A stretch of 64,000 bases of DNA, counting the filler, from Stramenopiles sp. TOSAG23-2 (Eukaryota): NCBI GenBank assembly GCA_900128395.1. It is 29 parts of 29 records of this genome, joined end to end, with 100 filler letters (N's around TTAATTAATTAA, not from the genome) between each part and the next. Parts side by side here need not be neighbours in the genome. Positions count along the whole stretch, not along the records: positions 46,492 to 48,599 come from LT652027.1; 28 more parts are not named here. The stretch is one strand, 5' to 3'. The notes under the pieces are model-generated. The model saw only the letters and a list, made by a program, of their open reading frames with translations, ran no database searches and was not told where the DNA came from. Position 1 is the stretch's first letter. Every line of letters starts with the position of its first letter. The position numbers were made by a program, and so were the translations under genes. Positions 11,110 through 48,699 of this stretch are shown in pieces.

Positions 11110-13228
11110 GTGCCACAGCATTGATGATAAAACTGCTACAATACCTTTATTATACAATGCATTATTATTTCCTCCATTTTTTTGTCTCGAATAGCTGTCC
11201 ATTAAATGACACCCATATCTCTGAATATCATTATTATCCACATGACAAGCCATAACGTGCAAGCATACTTCCATTCCACCATTATTTATTATATTTTGCA
11301 TATTCCATGGATGTTTAGTTACAATAGAAGATATTGCTAACATTCCCGACTCTATTAGTTTGGTATTCCGTGATCTTTCACTGAAAGACTCTGTCATGCA
11401 ACATTCATTTGATCTGCGTAATGTATCAACTACTACATCCAGAGTACCTGGGATGGTTGCAATCAAACTTTCTACAGATTTAGAATAGCATTTTGGGGTC
11501 TCAATGTAGTGCTCTTGCAGTGCTGGTATAACCGTCGGATAGCGCACCAGACTTAATTGGCATAATAGATCCATAGAATATTCTAAAATATCTACATGTT
11601 TTGATTCCACAGTTGGAAATGGTTTTGATAATAAATCTACTACAATTTTGATCCCACCAGCAGGGATAGTCGGAACGCACGACGTTGCAGCAAGGACCGA
11701 CTTTCGATCAGCCTTTAGAACAGAATGTAGGATTCGTTGTTGGTTTTTGTTTTTTTTTAACTCCTGTGGAACAGCAAGTCCTGCTCTAATGTTACATTTT
11801 AAATCAACAGCGACACTCGGTTTGTTCGGTTTGTAATGGCAATGAGCCTTGTTATACAATGCCCTCAACGCTGCAATTATTACATCTTCATTTTTTGCAT
11901 GCTTTTCTAGAATTGTAAAAATCAATTCAACATAATTCAAGGACTTAAGTACCGCGCACACACTAGATGACAATGCCCTCAACGCTGCAATTATTACATC
12001 TTCATTTTTTGCATGCTTTTCTAGAATTGTAAAAATCAATTCAACATAATTCAAGGACTTAAGTACCGCGCACACACTAGAAGATGGGGTTTGGCCGCCA
12101 TAAGCTGATTTTTGTCGCTGATTTTTGACACAACAAGCAATCTGAACAATCTCCAGTGCTACAATTTGCAAATCAGCAAAATCTATATATTTTTTCATAG
12201 TAATTAAAATGTTCTTCAAAAGAACACTTTCAGATACCTTTGATAATTCTATAAATTTCTCTAAACGAAATTCACGAAGTGCTTTTAATGCTTTCAATTT
12301 CTCAGCAGCATCATCACGTTCATAATGAAGTGTTGAGGTTTGATCGGACAAAAGCAACAAAGCTGTTCTTGCCTCGATATCAACAGTTTTGTATTTCTTC
12401 AAACCAAAACACTGCACCGTCTTACATTTCAAAAGTTTCTGCAAAATCTCTTTATCACACTTGCTTTCCTTATTAAATATATCTATATTCGGAAGAGCAA
12501 CTCTCCCATGTGGATAGCAACGATAAATACAGTGCAAATAAATAAAGTGCAGCGAATTACCCAAATCTTCGTAACAACCATAATTATTTGCATATTTTCG
12601 AAGTATATACCTAAATGCTTCAACGGAATCTCCATAGACTATATGTTTTGTTTCTTGTATTACACTGTAGTGTCGTCTACCAATGTGCTTAAGTTTAATC
12701 TCGTCAATGTTTTGGATGGATATAGAACGCCTCCTTTCCGCTTGTCTTAAATGTTTGAAATCGGAACGTAAAATAACATATAATTCGACTTCACCATCTA
12801 GATTCGGCAATAAGCATGACACGTTTAACCCATCAGATATTTTTGTACTATCACTTTCGTGCCATGAACCACTAAGAAAAATGAAATCAGTTGTTGCATT
12901 GCCCGATTTTAATCCTGTTTTGCCGTCTTCAAACTTCTTCCGCTTGTCTTAAATGTTTGAAATCGGAACGTAAAATAACATATAATTCGACTTCACCATC
13001 TAGATTCGGCAATAAGCATGACACGTTTAACCCATCAGATATTTTTGTACTATCACTTTCGTGCCATGAACCACTAAGAAAAATGAAATCAGTTGTTGCA
13101 TTGCCCGATTTTAATCCTGTTTTGCCGTCTTCAAACTTCTTTTCTGCGATTAAACTTTTCAATGTTGTATTTGAAGACGCAGATATAACTACGGATGACG
13201 ATTTGTAGAAATGCACATTGATATGTTT
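11110..13228 (-). CDS. Armadillo-repeat-like protein, partial, disrupted by two exact tandem duplications
   Basis: Helical repeats such as GGMEVCLHVMACHVDNNDIQRYGCHLM and ILITMKKYIDFADLQIVALEIV; duplications at 11856-12081 and 12736-13141. Confidence 0.6.
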
Positions 13229-21947: not shown

Positions 21948-22548
21948 CAACGGCATTTTGTTATTTTGAAAAGGTTTTTTGTTTTGAATTTTATTTATTT
22001 ATTTGAAAAGAATTGATCTTCAAAGGAACATCGATATTCCAAGTATAGATAATTTCATCTATTTACTTGTTGTGTATATATTNNNNNNNNNNNNNNNNNN
22101 NNNNNNNNNNNNNNNNNNNNNNNNNNTTAATTAATTAANNNNNNNNNNNNNNNNNNNNNNNNNNNNNNNNNNNNNNNNNNNNTGGACATTATAATATTTA
22201 TACACGCATCCGGTTGTAACAAAACCGGCTGCACTAAGGTAGATTAGTCGTTTAACCCACATAACATTTTTTTGCGCACAAACCTAAGCGGTGACTCTTT
22301 GAGGGGATTTCGCCATTGGTAAAAGATTACCGGTTACCAAATTTCTGCGAAAGTACCGAAAAATAACACCCCTTTTGTTTATGCTATTGGTTTTAGGCGT
22401 AGTACTATGGTAGCATAATATTTGTAATTGGAAGTGAAAGGAAACGTGATTCATGATTCATGACCAACAAGAGGTATCTGGATTCTGGATATCTGGATAT
22501 ATATACTGTACTGTATAGGATATGTTGTGTAGTTGCTACTAATATAAA

Positions 22549-23682
22549 TTAATAATATACGTTAAGACGTTTAGAAGAGTACCTTCCTCCTCTGTGAAAC
22601 CCTGACCCTAACTTCGTTCTGTAACGTTCTAATTGATGTTTCATATTACCGCTAAGTTGATTATTCTCTAGCTTCAATATTCTTAATGTATTGTTTGTTT
22701 TTAATCCATCAATAATACTTTGTACATCAGTAATATTATTATTATTTAGGTACAATGCCCTTAATGTATTGTTTCTTTTTAATCCATCACCAATACTTTG
22801 TACATCAGTAATATTATTATTATGTAGGTGCAATACCTTTAATGTATTGTTTGTTTTTAATGCTTCACCGATACTTTGTACATCTGTAATATCATTATCA
22901 TTTAGGCACAATTCCTTTAATAAATTGTTAGTTTTTAACAATTCACCAATAACTAATGCATCCTCATCCGTGAGATTCTTCTTGATCAAACTCACTCTGA
23001 TCTTTCCACGCAACTTTTTACGCAACCCTTTCAATCTTTTGATTTTCTTTTTACGCAATTTTTTCAATCTTTTTTTCTTCGCATCGTGTTCATATTTAAT
23101 CAAATAATTAACAATTTCATCCTTCACCCGATATGGATTGCTATATGCATTATCAAGTGGGGTTTCTCCGCCTACATCTTGTTGGTTTATCACTTTCTCC
23201 GGTAGATGTTTCAATAAATATTCTACAACATTTGAGCTTTTCTTGCTGTAATATGCAGCAATATGCAAAACGTTCCATTTATCACGCTTGCTACAAATAC
23301 TACTATCTACTCCATTTTCAATTAATAATTGAACAATATTTAAATAACCTTTTCGTGCTGCTATTCCTAGTGGTGTAAATGAAATCCCTTGGCTTGTCTT
23401 ACCTTCATTATTAATAACGTTTTTATTGTTAGTTTCAAGCAATATTTTGATCATATTTTCAACATCATTTATCCGGTTTTTTTCACATGCACATATCAAT
23501 GGATCACCCTTTGGAAACTCTTTCTTATATTTCTTGTATAAAACGTATAATGGATGGTCTTCACGTGTGAATACCGTTTCAAGTGGCAATGCCGGGCCAA
23601 ATATTTGTTCGTTGTCGATGTTTAACAAAGCACTACGAAATAATTGTCTCCCATTCATACTTAATTCTTGTTGTCGAGACAT
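22549..23682 (-). CDS. Ankyrin-repeat plus leucine-rich-repeat protein
   Basis: EFPKGDPLICACEK, FTPLGIAA, WNVLHIAA and GETPLD, then four 26-aa LRRs of the IGEALKTNNTLKVLHLHNNNITDVQS type. Confidence 0.9.
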   Translation of the reverse strand: MSRQQELSMNGRQLFRSALLNIDNEQIFGPALPLETVFTREDHPLYVLYKKYKKEFPKGDPLICACEKNRINDVENMIKILLETNNKNVINNEGKTSQGISFTPLGIAARKGYLNIVQLLIENGVDSSICSKRDKWNVLHIAAYYSKKSSNVVEYLLKHLPEKVINQQDVGGETPLDNAYSNPYRVKDEIVNYLIKYEHDAKKKRLKKLRKKKIKRLKGLRKKLRGKIRVSLIKKNLTDEDALVIGELLKTNNLLKELCLNDNDITDVQSIGEALKTNNTLKVLHLHNNNITDVQSIGDGLKRNNTLRALYLNNNNITDVQSIIDGLKTNNTLRILKLENNQLSGNMKHQLERYRTKLGSGFHRGGRYSSKRLNVYY

Positions 23683-24029
23683 GATGATTATTTTATATTG
23701 TTATTAATCCTTTTCTGTATACCACTCTTGTTTAAAAAAGATATCTTATATATATATATATATACTTTGCAAATAATAATAATAATAATAATAAAGAAAG
23801 TGAAACCAACTAGTTTTTCCTCTGATTTAATATTCGTATGGATATATATCTATATATATAGACATACATGTGTGTATAAACATTTAATATATCTCTTCTA
23901 GAATTCTATTATTTTTGTTTTAATTAAGGCAACAACAAAAACAAAATCCATCCTCCAGGTTGTCTTCATATAATAAAAAAATTATCCACGGCCGCCTTTA
24001 CCTTATTTTCGCACTTTAACTTTAACTTT

Positions 24030-24147
24030 CTTCCCTCAAACCAATTTTTGTAGGGTTTTTTTGAAAACCCTCTCTATACATCTGCTGTGTCCATGTTAAT
24101 TTTTATAACCACTCACTATTGATTTTGATAAAAAAAGGTAGAGAAAC
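24030..24147 (+). repeat. Dispersed repeat R2, with a second copy on the minus strand at about 48389-48505
   Basis: cctctctataca...gtgtccatgtta.tttttataaccactcactattgattttg...aaaaaaggtaga is shared between two contigs. Confidence 0.85.
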
Positions 24148-24394
24148 TGTTACGTATTTGATAGCATTAGGTTTTGTAGTGTCGTTAATTTAAGTATAAA
24201 ATAATGCACACATGTCACACATAGCATCCTCTAAAAAATGCCAAATTCAAATTTAAATAAAAATAATCACCAATATGATTACTTTAGCTATCTTNNNNNN
24301 NNNNNNNNNNNNNNNNNNNNNNNNNNNNNNNNNNNNNNTTAATTAATTAANNNNNNNNNNNNNNNNNNNNNNNNNNNNNNNNNNNNNNNNNNNN

Positions 24395-46491: not shown

Positions 46492-47306
46492 TGTACATAT
46501 ATTAAATCTTCTAATTCACGTTTCAAATTGATAGTGTTTTTCTCATTTTTTTTCATGTTATCAACAAGTGCAAATGATATCTTATTTTTATCATCTTGCT
46601 TTTCCATCCCCGCATCATCCTGATCCACCAATGGCAATGTTAATGAATATGAATATTTCCCTAATATTTCTATCATCTTATGATAAAACGATGCCAACTG
46701 CGGACAATCGATTACAATATACCGATCTTGTCGGTTTGTAAAATAATCTGTACTTAAATTTGCGCCTGAAAGTATCACAGTATCATCAAAAACATAGGCT
46801 TTCATGTGAAATGTTTGAAACATTTCATTGAATCGTGGTGGTAAAAATGATTCAACAAAAATTCTTAGTTTAGATGCATCTGTTGAACGTGGCATTTCGA
46901 AAAAATTAATATTTACGTTGGTATCATTATTCCCTTTATTACAATTTGTTGCTTGATTATTTCTTGCCGCATGAAGTAATGTGGTACACAAAGATGCAGT
47001 TGATGCACCAGTTTCACGATCAGGGCGTGTGCCACGATTTTTATCTACTAATATTCGCATTTGAATATTTTTATTTGATTCAATTAATTTACATAAATCA
47101 TCTCGTAATACAATTTCTTTGTCGCTAATTCCAAGATACAATGATGCTAACGACACGTGCCTTTTAGCACTTTTTACTTGTTTACGAAGCTCCGTATAAA
47201 AGCAATTTGGTGAATTTAATATTTTTACACTACGAGTTTCAAATATTTTTAATTTAATTTGTTTACCACCTTTTGGTGAAAGTAAAAATCGTCGAAAGGC
47301 ATCCAT
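46492..47306 (-). CDS. PGS1: Phosphatidylglycerophosphate synthase (PLD superfamily), 3'-partial
   Basis: SAKRHVSLASLYLG, LVDKNRGTR, LPPRFNE, HMKAYVFDDTVILSGANLSTDYFTNRQDRY. Confidence 0.92.
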
Positions 47307-47486
47307 TATTATGAAAAAATTAGAGATTACTTACTTATAACTGCTGATAAACGTACTAATAGTATTACTGTTACTTTTAGAGGTACACAATCTATAAAAA
47401 ACGCTTTATCTGATGCTAATATTTTACCTTACAAGGGATGTGATGGAAATTTAGTAAATAAATTAAAAGGTAGTAGAATTATTTAA
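47307..47486 (+). pseudogene. Fragment of a class-3 lipase-like gene, possibly viral
   Basis: LITADKRTNSITVTFRGTQSIKNALSD matches the lipase_3 I.V.FRGT.S motif; no start codon and no GHSLG nucleophile motif. Confidence 0.55.
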
Positions 47487-48060
47487 ATATACTGGATTAT
47501 TCAATAATAATTTGCCTTTAGGTCTAAATATGAAGTCATATATTTTATCTTTAAATCCGGCAATTAAAAATAACGATATAGCTATACATAACATTATTAC
47601 ATCAGTCCTTGTGGTTATTTGATATTGATATTTAAACCATTCAACTAACTCTACATAAATACATGGTATATAAAATATAATATTTGTTATTAATCCCTTC
47701 CATGTATCCGTATTTGTAAAAAGTGCATCTCCCTGAGCTACGGGAAGACTCTGCGCTTGCCAGAGTATCCCTGAGCGTCGTGTGTTCCGACTATATGCAT
47801 TATTTTAGTCGGAACACACGACGCATTATTATTTTTACTGTAATAATAAACTAACCCTAAAATTGACACTATAATAGCAAAATTTAATGATATTAATACC
47901 ATAATCCCATTCATCAATGTAGGCACATTACCAAATACCAAAAACAAAATAATATTATACCTAATGTAACACCAAAAAATGTAACTAAAGTTAAGGATTT
48001 TTTTAACATACTTGTCCATGACGCTGTACTCAATAAAGTCATACAAGAATATAGATTATA
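47463..48060 (-). pseudogene. Degraded multi-TM gene resembling giant-virus (Nucleocytoviricota) membrane proteins, interrupted by a hairpin insert
   Basis: After removing 47729-47826 it reads ILGLVYYYSKNNNALFTNTDTWKGLITNIIFYIPCIYVELVEWFKYQYQITTRTDVIMLC...KGKLLLNNPVYLNN. The viral resemblance is from memory and unverified. Confidence 0.5.
47729..47822. mobile_element. 94-bp GC-rich structured insert flanked by a GCAT duplication
   Basis: GCAT at 47725-47728 and 47823-47826; perfect 19-bp stem 47775-47793/47806-47824; TCCCTGAGC direct repeat twice. Confidence 0.5.
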
Positions 48061-48388
48061 TCAATAATGTGTGCGTGAATATTTTTTTCTTCCGTATGCT
48101 ATAAATGTTATTTATATTATATATGTATTAATATAGTCATGGTCAAATTGTTCATCTCGTTGCCACCCTCCTCTCATCTTAAATTAAACTGAAAGATGAC
48201 CCAGTTTGCAAATTTAGTTGTCTGTATATATTTAAATTTTTACACTGTTAAAAGAACATAAAGTGCAAAAATTAGACCAACGATTTTGACATGTATATAA
48301 GAAAAGACAATATAACATTATATATATTAATTTATATATATATTATTCAACTAAACGTTTGAATGAATTAAAAAAAAAGTCTGTCGTT

Positions 48389-48505
48389 GTTTTTTCTACC
48401 TTTTTTGATCCAAAATCAATAGTGAGTGGTTATAAAAAATAACATGGACACACCAGCTGTATAGAGAGGATTTTTAAATTCTTTAGAAAATGGGTCTTGA
48501 GGGGG
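48389..48505 (-). repeat. Dispersed repeat R2, second copy
   Basis: Its reverse complement aligns with 24030-24147. Confidence 0.85.
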
Positions 48506-48699
48506 AGATAAGGCGGCACGTGAATATATTAATAATAATAAATTAAATAATAATAACAGTATCAGGCCCAACAATATCTAAAAACCAATAATACGTAGTN
48601 NNNNNNNNNNNNNNNNNNNNNNNNNNNNNNNNNNNNNNNNNNNTTAATTAATTAANNNNNNNNNNNNNNNNNNNNNNNNNNNNNNNNNNNNNNNNNNNN

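What the first reader, a model, noticed from the sequence alone, without database searches (positions are those of the whole stretch)
47307..48060. Giant-virus-like gene fragments wedged between host PGS1 and host repeat R2
Seen: within one contig, the first Met of PGS1 abuts a lipase_3-like fragment on the + strand (ADKRTNSITVTFRGTQS). That fragment runs into a truncated, frameshifted multi-TM gene on the - strand (NIIFYIPCIYVELVEWFKYQYQITT...GKLLLNNPVYLN), and beyond it lies host-like intergenic DNA carrying repeat R2. The ORF track misses the lipase fragment and the downstream half of the TM gene. From memory, the IFYIPC...G..LL..PVYLN pattern matches membrane proteins of marine Imitervirales-type giant viruses; this is unverified. 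Inference: either a decayed endogenous viral element, or an amplification chimera recording a virus inside the cell. Both would link a virus to this host.
Basis: partly seen in the sequence, partly recalled or inferred. Interest (0 to 1): 0.72.

Follow-up and report, generated by a model that had tools for sequence, protein, structure and literature searches.

The report
Giant-virus DNA patchwork inside a protist genome
A 732-base patchwork of three broken giant-virus gene pieces sits just upstream of a marine protist's PGS1 gene, is found in independent ocean samples alongside a version without it, and so ties an uncultured giant-virus lineage to this host.

Summary
The window is 31 short contigs joined by spacers, and the finding lies on contig 46492-48599.

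Bases 47336-48067 (732 nt) are viral. They comprise:
- an internal 135-nt piece of a Lipase_3 gene on the + strand;
- a 5'- and 3'-truncated piece of a 418-aa membrane/ConA-like gene on the - strand, identical at 150 of 150 aligned residues to an intact environmental protein;

Intact copies of all three genes lie on two contigs of one giant-virus MAG in IMG/VR.

The same junctions recur in a 22.8-kb named contig whose neighbouring genes are cellular (full PGS1, Med7). They also recur in contigs from another organism-coded run and from two bulk marine metagenomes. An amplification chimera is therefore rejected.

One contig from an RNA library joins 47335 to 48068 with 7 other letters between. 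This is an empty-site allele, so the insert varies in presence within wild populations.

The "frameshift" has two causes: a 1-nt deletion, and a 101-nt footprint of a dispersed host repeat that lands 35 nt after TAGGGT motifs.

This is a new member of a known kind, an endogenous fragment derived from a nucleocytoplasmic large DNA virus (NCLDV). It is non-coding, and its value is as a virus-host link.

The parts
46492..47307 (-). 5' part of host PGS1 (CDP-diacylglycerol--glycerol-3-phosphate 3-phosphatidyltransferase). The start codon is at 47307-47305 and the gene runs off the contig end.
   Evidence: ORF. PLDc_2 match. The full 516-aa ORF is in L053. Named eukaryotic homologues.
47308..47335 (-). 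28 nt of host DNA between the PGS1 start codon and the insert.
   Evidence: Contiguous with 48068 onward in the RNA-library contig of X15, which lacks the insert (tables 5, 5c, 8).
47336..48067 (.). The whole virus-derived insert, 732 nt. In the empty-site form it is replaced by 7 letters.
   Evidence: Joint 47335->48068 'skips 732'. The edges of viral homology coincide with it.
47336..47470 (+). Internal fragment of a viral Lipase_3 gene, about residues 171-215 of 713. The GHSLG serine motif at residue 301 of P0003 lies outside the fragment.
   Evidence: (93.3% nt to L001 10507-10641).
47467..47726 (-). Distal part of the viral membrane/ConA-like gene piece, P0126 residues 160-245. It is cut before the Laminin_G_3 domain.
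   Evidence: One search gives 86% nt to L002 10478-10737. One search gives 86 of 86 residues identical to P0126.
47727..47827 (-). 101-nt footprint of a dispersed host repeat, not viral. It holds two head-to-head copies of a 19-mer (47775-47793 and 47806-47824), which make the 19-bp hairpin. It shifts the reading frame.
   Evidence: The 19-mer occurs in 63 metagenome stretches, with structure and target duplications. L053 and X5 carry only one copy.
47828..48026 (-). Proximal part of the membrane gene piece, P0126 residues 96-159. It has a 1-nt deletion between 47933 and 47932 and a 6-nt insertion at 47899-47904.
   Evidence: The 6-nt insertion is absent from one X4 contig (table 4).
48032..48067 (+). 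Last 11 codons plus the stop of a viral NUDIX hydrolase gene. In the virus it lies 2.16 kb from the membrane-gene piece.
   Evidence: (95-97% nt to L002 8089-8125, L003, L004, L005), (NUDIX E 7.7e-13).
48068..48599 (.). Host DNA upstream of the insert, including dispersed repeat R2 at 48391-48478.
   Evidence: (depth). Colinear with L053.

Best explanation
This is a real endogenous insertion of giant-virus DNA in the nuclear genome of an AT-rich marine flagellate. It is not an artefact.

Three non-adjacent pieces of one viral lineage's genome were joined end to end. They replaced 7 nt of host DNA 28 nt upstream of the PGS1 start codon. The pieces are:
- 135 nt of a lipase gene, inverted;
- about 450 nt of a membrane/ConA-like gene;
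- 36-37 nt of a NUDIX gene end.

The most likely mechanism is inferred, not shown. Fragments of viral DNA present in a cell that survived an infection were captured by end-joining repair at a chromosome break.

The insert then stayed in the host line. There it gained a 1-nt deletion and a 6-nt insertion in some haplotypes. It also received one or two visits by a host mobile repeat that targets sites 35 nt after TAGGGT, a motif the viral coding sequence happens to contain.

The insert encodes nothing functional. It still varies in presence or absence within natural populations. It is a molecular record that this virus lineage has been inside this host.
For: **Viral origin**
- The lipase piece is 89% aa identical to Lipase_3 proteins of about 713 aa and 93% nt identical to L001.
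- The membrane piece matches P0126 at E 1.9e-50, with 150 of 150 aligned residues identical.
- The NUDIX end is 95-97% nt identical to all 4 viral loci that carry the membrane gene.
- L001 and L002 carry the same IMG/VR giant-virus MAG name. Their genes include a capping enzyme, an SNF2 helicase, NUDIX, MutS_V and XPG.

**The pieces are not adjacent in the virus**
- The lipase gene is found on 0 of the 4 loci that carry the membrane gene. The membrane gene is found on 0 of the 1 locus that carries the lipase gene.
- The NUDIX end lies 2.16 kb from the membrane piece.

**The flanks are host DNA**
- L053 is 13.6 kb of a 22,818-nt contig and is 97-99% identical across the locus.
- It carries an intact 516-aa PGS1, Med7 (E 1.2e-13), a leucine-rich-repeat protein and an ILEI-domain protein.

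**Independent recurrence of the junctions (table 8)**
- X2 record 5 spans 46517-48522.
- X5 record 15 bridges 47335/47336.
- X4 record 9 and X5 record 16 bridge 47470.
- X4 record 10 bridges the membrane/NUDIX joint.
- Predicted proteins that end at the same junction occur on an NCBI contig and on ENA contigs.

**Empty site**
- X15 record 3 joins 47335 to 48068 with 7 letters between (tables 5, 5c).

**Events after integration**
- The 101-nt block belongs to a repeat found at 64 non-redundant sites in AT-rich contigs. It has 8-10-nt target duplications and a TAGGGT motif 35 nt before it.
- The window haplotype has one more micro-copy than L053 and X5.

**Junctions**
- They show about 0-4 nt of possible overlap and about 5 nt of filler.
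Against: - The empty-site form rests on a single 382-nt contig from one RNA library. That library may contain DNA, and I could lay reads only once.
X4 record 10 reaches just 30 letters past it.
- Library methods for X2, X4 and X5 are not on record, so 'unamplified' is taken from their labels and sizes.
- L053 and X2 may come from material related to the window's source.
- One-step capture versus reduction of a larger insert cannot be separated with these data.
P0126 was seen only as protein.
- The lipase piece has no equally close match (3 internal differences in 45 residues).
- The host was not identified beyond a weak stramenopile hint.
- The giant-virus MAG could not be checked for capsid, PolB or A32 genes, because the record is not held.
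Confidence: 0.86

Rival explanations
1. This is the remnant of a much larger integrated giant-virus genome. Later deletions and an inversion cut it down to 732 nt. It was not captured in one step as a patchwork.
For: - The membrane-gene piece and the NUDIX end have the same orientation and order as in the virus, separated there by 2.16 kb. That is what a simple internal deletion would leave.
- The insert has clearly undergone later changes: a 1-nt deletion, a 6-nt insertion and repeat footprints.
Against: - The membrane piece shows 150 of 150 aligned residues identical to a present-day viral protein. The window and L053 differ by only 1 true substitution in the viral part of the insert. This leaves little time for several large rearrangements.
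- The lipase piece is inverted. In the one viral bin that holds both genes, it lies on a different contig.
- The empty-site form differs from the filled one by just 7 nt.
- No other viral similarity was found in the 13.6 kb of L053, though this was tested against only 46 kb of viral reference.
Confidence: 0.2
2. It is a chimera made by whole-genome amplification or by assembly, joining host and virus DNA that were merely in the same cell or sample.
For: - The assembly is highly fragmented (contigs of about 2.1 kb).
- One junction is inverted, as amplification chimeras often are. That property of chimeras is recalled, not tested here.
Against: - The same three internal junctions and both outer junctions occur in L053 and in a contig of X2. 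Most of them also occur in contigs of two large metagenome runs from different studies and years.
- Haplotype differences between these copies show they are not one data set (tables 3-5).
- A host repeat has inserted into the viral piece.
Confidence: 0.02
3. The contig is viral, and a giant virus captured the host's PGS1 and neighbouring DNA.
For: - Giant viruses do carry cellular-type lipid genes (recalled).
- GC content of the insert and of the flanks is similar.
Against: - In L053 the flanks carry Med7 and other cellular genes over 13.6 kb, with no viral similarity outside the insert.
- The three viral genes are broken here but intact in the viral contigs.
- An insert-free form exists.
- The flank holds high-copy repeats shared with other contigs of the assembly.
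Confidence: 0.02
4. The fragments came from a resident, intact endogenous copy of the virus elsewhere in the same host genome, copied in during repair. They did not come from an infecting virus.
For: The complete residue identity to P0126 would be expected if P0126 were encoded in the same host genome. P0126 is known only from a 2,196-nt contig.
Against: - Relatives of P0126 lie on gene-dense contigs in viral collections, with viral neighbour genes.
- No such copy was seen in the host DNA held here. That DNA is only about 62 kb of window plus the 63 fetched stretches.
Confidence: 0.08

Closest known systems
Endogenous viral elements derived from Nucleocytoviricota in protist and algal genomes (for example Bellas et al. 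2023, PMC10120064, of which I saw the search listing and the start of the abstract only; giant endogenous viral elements of green algae are recalled, not read)
   Same: Giant-virus DNA is fixed in a host chromosome and flanked by cellular genes, and it can be used to infer past virus-host contact.
   Different: - It is very small (732 nt) and has no intact gene.
- It is built from three separate viral loci with one inversion.
- It is resolved to the base.
- It is still polymorphic, with a matching empty site.
- It is near-identical to a present-day viral gene.
Capture of foreign or organellar DNA fragments at chromosome breaks by end joining, as in mosaic organelle-to-nucleus insertions (recalled general knowledge, not read here)
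   Same: Non-contiguous fragments are joined in either orientation, with little or no overlap, a few filler bases and a small loss of target DNA (table 5c).
   Different: The source is a giant virus. The repair mechanism itself was not tested.
Chimeric junctions of multiple-displacement amplification in single-cell genomes (recalled)
   Same: An inverted junction between unrelated sequences on a short contig of a fragmented assembly.
   Different: The junctions are reproducible in independent assemblies and metagenomes. An amplification chimera would not be.
Site-targeted mobile elements that insert at a fixed distance from a short motif or gene, such as tRNA-gene-targeted elements of Dictyostelium (recalled). 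This applies to the host repeat inside the insert.
   Same: The insertion point lies at a fixed 35-nt distance from a 6-7-nt motif and carries target duplications.
   Different: - The motif is TAGGGT(T), which resembles a telomere repeat.
- Most copies are tiny, at 19-31 nt.
- No transposase was found, so the class of element is undetermined.

Membership tests
Endogenous viral element of giant-virus (Nucleocytoviricota) origin | Sequence is homologous to genes of that virus group. | tested here: met
   Intact homologues lie on giant-virus MAG contigs L001 and L002, next to capping enzyme, SNF2, NUDIX, MutS_V and XPG genes.
Endogenous viral element of giant-virus (Nucleocytoviricota) origin | Physically continuous with host chromosomal DNA on both sides, reproducibly. 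| tested here: met
   L053. Contigs of X2, X4 and X5 (table 8). By the 31-letter rule, the outer junction 48067/48068 is bridged by X2 and L053 only.
Endogenous viral element of giant-virus (Nucleocytoviricota) origin | A matching insert-free (empty) site exists. | tested here: met
   One contig of RNA library X15 joins 47335 to 48068 with 7 letters between. This is a single record.
Giant endogenous viral element (tens to hundreds of kb, many viral genes) | A long stretch of colinear viral genes. | tested here: not met
   Only 732 nt are viral. The rest of the 13.6 kb of L053 shows no similarity to the 5 viral loci and encodes cellular proteins.
Donor virus in the order Imitervirales | Hallmark genes (major capsid protein, PolB, A32, etc.) and phylogenetic placement. 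| not testable with these tools
   The viral record is not held for whole-record search. Only its label and its gene content are available. That a MutS-type gene marks this order is recalled, not tested.
Lipase_3 (PF01764), functional member | A full alpha/beta-hydrolase domain with the GxSxG serine. | tested here: not met
   The fragment alone matches no Pfam family. It covers about residues 171-215, while GHSLG lies at residue 301 of P0003. The full-length relatives do carry PF01764.
Viral membrane protein with a C-terminal Laminin_G_3 / ConA-like domain, functional member | An N-terminal hydrophobic region plus an intact Laminin_G_3 domain in one open frame. | tested here: not met
   The homologues have the domain at about residues 230-400. 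The window piece stops at P0126 residue 245, lacks residues 1-95, and is broken by a 1-nt deletion and a 101-nt insertion.
Amplification or assembly chimera | The junction is confined to one amplified library or assembly. | tested here: not met
   The junctions recur in L053, X2, X4 and X5, and in predicted proteins from NCBI and ENA contigs.
Host PGS1 (CDP-DAG--glycerol-3-phosphate 3-phosphatidyltransferase, PLD superfamily) | A PLD-type domain and full-length similarity to named PGS1 enzymes. | tested here: met
   PLDc_2 and PLDc matches. Full-length coverage of 95-100% to named eukaryotic enzymes, E down to 7e-88. Atlas feature score 0.96. Activity was not tested.

The most novel reading that the evidence does not exclude
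The insert may not be an accident but one instance of a regular process. In this reading, the host keeps short pieces of giant-virus DNA in transcribed regions. A transcript running on the PGS1 strand would carry the lipase and NUDIX pieces in antisense and the membrane-gene piece in sense. Such transcripts would feed small-RNA silencing of the matching virus. That would be an inheritable antiviral memory in a marine protist, which would explain why a broken patchwork that is near-identical to a circulating virus has spread through wild populations.
Probability: 0.04. Interest if true: 0.9.

Novelty: new member of a known kind. Interest (0 to 1): 0.55.

Why it matters
Hosts are unknown for most marine giant viruses that are known only from metagenomes. 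Here a chromosomal insert is resolved to the base. It has an intact viral counterpart at complete residue identity over 150 residues, and both filled and empty alleles occur in ocean samples. That gives a direct and testable link between one uncultured giant-virus lineage and one uncultured flagellate.

It also offers a clean natural example of how viral DNA enters a protist genome: three fragments, joined ends, and a 7-nt loss of target DNA.

The filled and empty alleles can serve as a population marker for dating and tracking the contact between virus and host.

The host repeat that landed in the viral piece is of separate interest. It selects sites at a fixed distance from a telomere-like motif.

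Tried and rejected
- **Whole genome.** None is held for this window, so the rest of the assembly could not be searched for capsid, PolB or A32 genes. Only the 31 window contigs and the fetched loci were compared with 5 viral loci. One of the 31 window contigs matched, plus L053. L047 also matched, but only through a cellular-type DEAD-box helicase.
- **Viral MAG record.** It is not held for family searches.
- **Lipase search in viral contigs.** A single lipase protein as query found nothing. An alignment was needed.
- **Hairpin 19-mer.** It is absent from viral contigs (0 stretches).
- **Rfam.** Nothing reached the gathering score in the whole window. The hairpin gave only chance-level miRNA-like hits, with E from 0.24 to 1.1. 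An RNA-gene reading of the GC-rich block is rejected.
- **Intron reading.** I considered the 732-nt skip in the RNA contig as an intron and rejected it. The ends are TA..AA, and 7 other letters replace the skipped part.
- **33-nt indel at 47273.** I first misread it as disrupting PGS1. P0141 shows it is an in-frame 11-codon indel.
- **Earlier notes of this scan.** Nothing was found by place or by sequence. One call with too many words failed.
- **Literature.**
  - The viral MAG name gave 0 papers.
  - The accession prefixes of the named host-like contigs gave 1 irrelevant paper.
  - The study of viral content in single-cell genomes is cited by others but is not in the library. I cannot say whether this insert was reported there. 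Supplements were not consulted.
- **Orphan ORF.** The Atlas search for the 113-aa ORF gave no usable hit.
- **RNA cover.** In X15 the insert (47344-48053) has no RNA cover. That sample shows the empty form, so this says nothing about expression of the filled allele.

Full report
**What the window is.** The 64-kb window is a chain of 31 contigs of about 2.1 kb each. They are joined by N44-TTAATTAATTAA-N44 spacers and sorted by length. GC content is 25-40%. The finding lies on one contig, 46492-48599, so neighbouring parts of the window say nothing about its context. No whole genome is held.

**Anatomy of the contig.** On the - strand, an open frame from the contig end up to a Met at 47307 matches PLDc_2. 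The full-length form in a related locus is 516 aa. It matches named eukaryotic CDP-diacylglycerol--glycerol-3-phosphate 3-phosphatidyltransferases over 95-100% of its length. The best named hits are oomycetes at 34-37% identity. The PGS1 reading therefore stands. The oomycete hits are only a weak hint that the host is a stramenopile.

**The three viral pieces.**
- *Lipase.* Bases 47336-47470 (+) encode 45-47 residues that are 89% identical to an internal part (about residues 171-215) of proteins of about 713 aa carrying Lipase_3. The DNA is 93.3% identical to L001. The serine motif lies at residue 301 of P0003, outside the fragment.
- *Membrane gene.* Bases 47467-48026 (-) correspond to residues 96-245 of a 418-aa protein family. 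That family has an N-terminal hydrophobic region and a C-terminal Laminin_G_3 / ConA-like domain. Against the best match, P0126, all 150 aligned residues are identical. DNA identity to L002 is 83-86%. The piece lacks the first 95 codons and the whole lectin-like domain. It has a 1-nt deletion between 47933 and 47932 and a 6-nt insertion at 47899-47904. It is interrupted by 101 non-viral bases at 47727-47827.
Bases 48032-48067 (+) are 95-97% identical to a stretch in all 4 viral loci that carry the membrane gene. That stretch holds the last 11 codons and the stop of a 267-aa NUDIX gene, which lies 2.16 kb from the membrane piece.

About 5 bases (48027-48031) remain unassigned.

**Is the source a giant virus?** The lipase gene (L001) and the membrane and NUDIX genes (L002) lie on two contigs, of 17,067 and 18,971 nt, that bear the same IMG/VR giant-virus MAG name. 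Their neighbours include:
- a fused mRNA capping enzyme / N7-methyltransferase;
- an SNF2-type helicase;
- a MutS domain V protein;
- an XPG nuclease;
- a SWIB protein;
- a DEAD-box-helicase-like ORF (read from the translation, not scanned with Pfam);
- two more Laminin_G_3 paralogues.

Relatives of the membrane protein sit on contigs of up to 172 kb. I could not test hallmark genes or phylogeny because the record is not held. 'Imitervirales' therefore remains a label plus recalled gene-content logic. The lipase and membrane genes are not within about 10 kb of each other in any fetched viral locus.

**Chimera or real?** Several independent lines answer this.
- *Predicted proteins.* The protein library holds predicted proteins that end at the same lipase/membrane junction. 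They come from an NCBI contig of 22,818 nt and from ENA contigs of up to 19,386 nt. They differ from the window only by indels inside the 101-nt block.
- *L053.* A scan of metagenome contigs with the block's 19-mer fetched that 22.8-kb contig as L053. It is colinear with the window contig at 97-99% identity and carries all three viral pieces with the same junctions. Around the insert it has an intact PGS1, Med7, a leucine-rich-repeat protein, an ILEI-domain protein and other long ORFs. It shows no other similarity to the viral loci.
- *Sequencing runs.* 20 of the 24 listed public runs, from 13 studies, hold the stretch or a part of it. I laid four of them:
  - X2, with a different organism code and study, has one contig covering 46517-48522.
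  - Metagenome X5 has a 2,121-nt contig running from PGS1 to 47413, across the host/lipase junction.
  - X4 and X5 each have a contig across the lipase/membrane junction, and X4 has one across the membrane/NUDIX junction.
  - By the tool's 31-letter rule, the outer junction at 48067/48068 is bridged only by X2 and L053, because X4 reaches just 30 letters past it.
  - The library type of these runs is not on record.

The same five junctions in separately assembled data, with distinct haplotypes, exclude a random amplification chimera.

**The empty site.** One 382-nt contig of RNA library X15 runs from 48137 to 48068. It then has 7 other letters and continues from 47335 into the PGS1 coding region (tables 5, 5c, 8). 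The skipped 732 nt are exactly the viral block.
- The ends are not intron-like and the skipped letters are replaced, so this is an insert-free allele and not a spliced RNA.
- This contig shares variants with X4 and X5, including an in-frame 33-nt stretch at 47273. It therefore belongs to the same population (table 3).
- In X4, contigs end or begin exactly at 47335 and 48068. That is what a graph branch between two alleles would give. This is an inference.
- The evidence for the empty site is a single record and needs read-level confirmation.

**The GC-rich hairpin.** The 19-bp inverted repeat is not a structured RNA. Its arm occurs exactly in 63 metagenome stretches. Of these, 61 are AT-rich like the host and 2 are GC-rich, probably by chance. 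Another window contig holds it with 2 mismatches.
- Typical copies are units of 19-31 nt flanked by 8-10-nt target duplications.
- One complete copy of about 0.94 kb, with inverted ends of about 120 nt and a 9-nt duplication, is in L027.
- Of 64 non-redundant sites, 29 have TAGGGT/AGGGTT before the unit, or its complement after it. The figure is 3.7% at random places in the same loci.
- In 12 sites the motif lies exactly 35 nt before the unit, with no other conserved flank position.
- The viral coding sequence contains TTTTAGGGTTAG, and the block sits 35 nt after it (L053 row).
- L053 and X5 have one copy there. The window and X2 have a second, inverted micro-copy with its own 8-nt duplication, and this creates the hairpin.

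A host mobile repeat has therefore visited the viral piece at least twice. That needs residence in the host genome.

**How it arose and what it does.**
- *Shown.*
  - The block is viral and its pieces are non-adjacent in the virus.
  - The flanks are cellular.
  - Filled and empty forms both exist.
- *Inferred.*
  - The junctions have about 0-4 nt of possible overlap, about 5 nt of filler and a 7-nt target loss. This fits end-joining capture of viral DNA fragments at a chromosome break in a cell that survived infection.
  - The complete residue identity to P0126 and the single true substitution between two host haplotypes in the viral part argue for a recent event.
  - The 6-nt insertion is absent from one X4 contig (table 4) and the repeat footprints differ between haplotypes. 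Both show some time has passed since integration.
- *Function.*
  - No piece can encode a working protein.
  - The block lies 28 nt upstream of the PGS1 start, so it may alter PGS1 expression. This was not testable here.
- *Rivals.*
  - A larger integrated virus reduced by deletion remains possible (about 0.2).
  - A resident copy as the source is less likely (about 0.08).
  - A chimera and a viral contig are each about 0.02.

**Comparison and novelty.** Giant-virus-derived DNA in protist genomes is well known.
- I saw the listing and abstract start of PMC10120064.
- A passage of the preprint 10.1101/2025.06.17.660233 states that single-cell genomes of one marine chrysophyte clade carry endogenous elements from Nucleocytoviricota.
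- This case is therefore a new member of a known kind.
- What is unusual is the resolution:
  - a three-piece patchwork;
  - exact edges;
  - an empty site;
  - a near-identical living donor gene;
  - dated secondary events.
- I found no paper naming this viral MAG. The key single-cell survey is not in the library and supplements were not consulted. I cannot rule out a prior mention.

**Verdict.**
- Observation: confirmed.
- Interpretation: supported, in its endogenous-element form.
- Interest: moderate, at 0.55.

Noticed in passing
window 47727-47827; L006-L068 (for example L019, L017, L030, L057, L027): This is a dispersed host repeat whose 19-31-nt units carry 8-10-nt target duplications. 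It inserts 35 nt after a TAGGGT(T) motif, which resembles a telomere repeat. Of 64 sites, 29 have the motif, against 3.7% at random places, and 12 have it at exactly 35 nt. One copy of about 0.94 kb with inverted ends of about 120 nt is in L027. No transposase was found and the class of element is unknown.
   Followed up: partly
window 48134; L053 4367-4853: L053 and contigs of X4 and X5 carry 487 nt here that the window and X2 lack. The extra DNA completes a 113-aa ORF on the PGS1 strand. That ORF has no Pfam match and no usable Atlas hit. It is unclear whether the difference is a deletion in the window's haplotype or an insertion in the others.
   Followed up: partly
window 47273: This is an in-frame 33-nt (11-codon) indel in the PGS1 N-terminal region. 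The stretch is present in X4, X5, X15 and protein P0141, and a more distant homologue (P0142) has a longer version. It is absent from the window and from L053.
   Followed up: yes
window 48391-48478: Repeat R2 is shared with window contig 22183-24294 (91% over 88 nt). Its summed depth is 158-339, against about 5-16 nearby, in two metagenomes. It is a high-copy element of this or of several organisms. Many contigs break at its edges.
   Followed up: partly
window 11667-11685: A copy of the repeat's 19-mer, with 2 mismatches, lies on another contig of the same assembly. Its context was read but not analysed.
   Followed up: no
L002 10001-12916: In the viral MAG, the membrane/ConA-like gene is followed by two more genes with Laminin_G_3 domains (234 and 296 aa). 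Together they form a small paralogue cluster.
   Followed up: no
protein P0006: One environmental lipase homologue has unrelated-looking N- and C-terminal stretches. They may be adaptor or chimera artefacts of its own assembly, but this judgement rests on recall. I did not use it as evidence.
   Followed up: no
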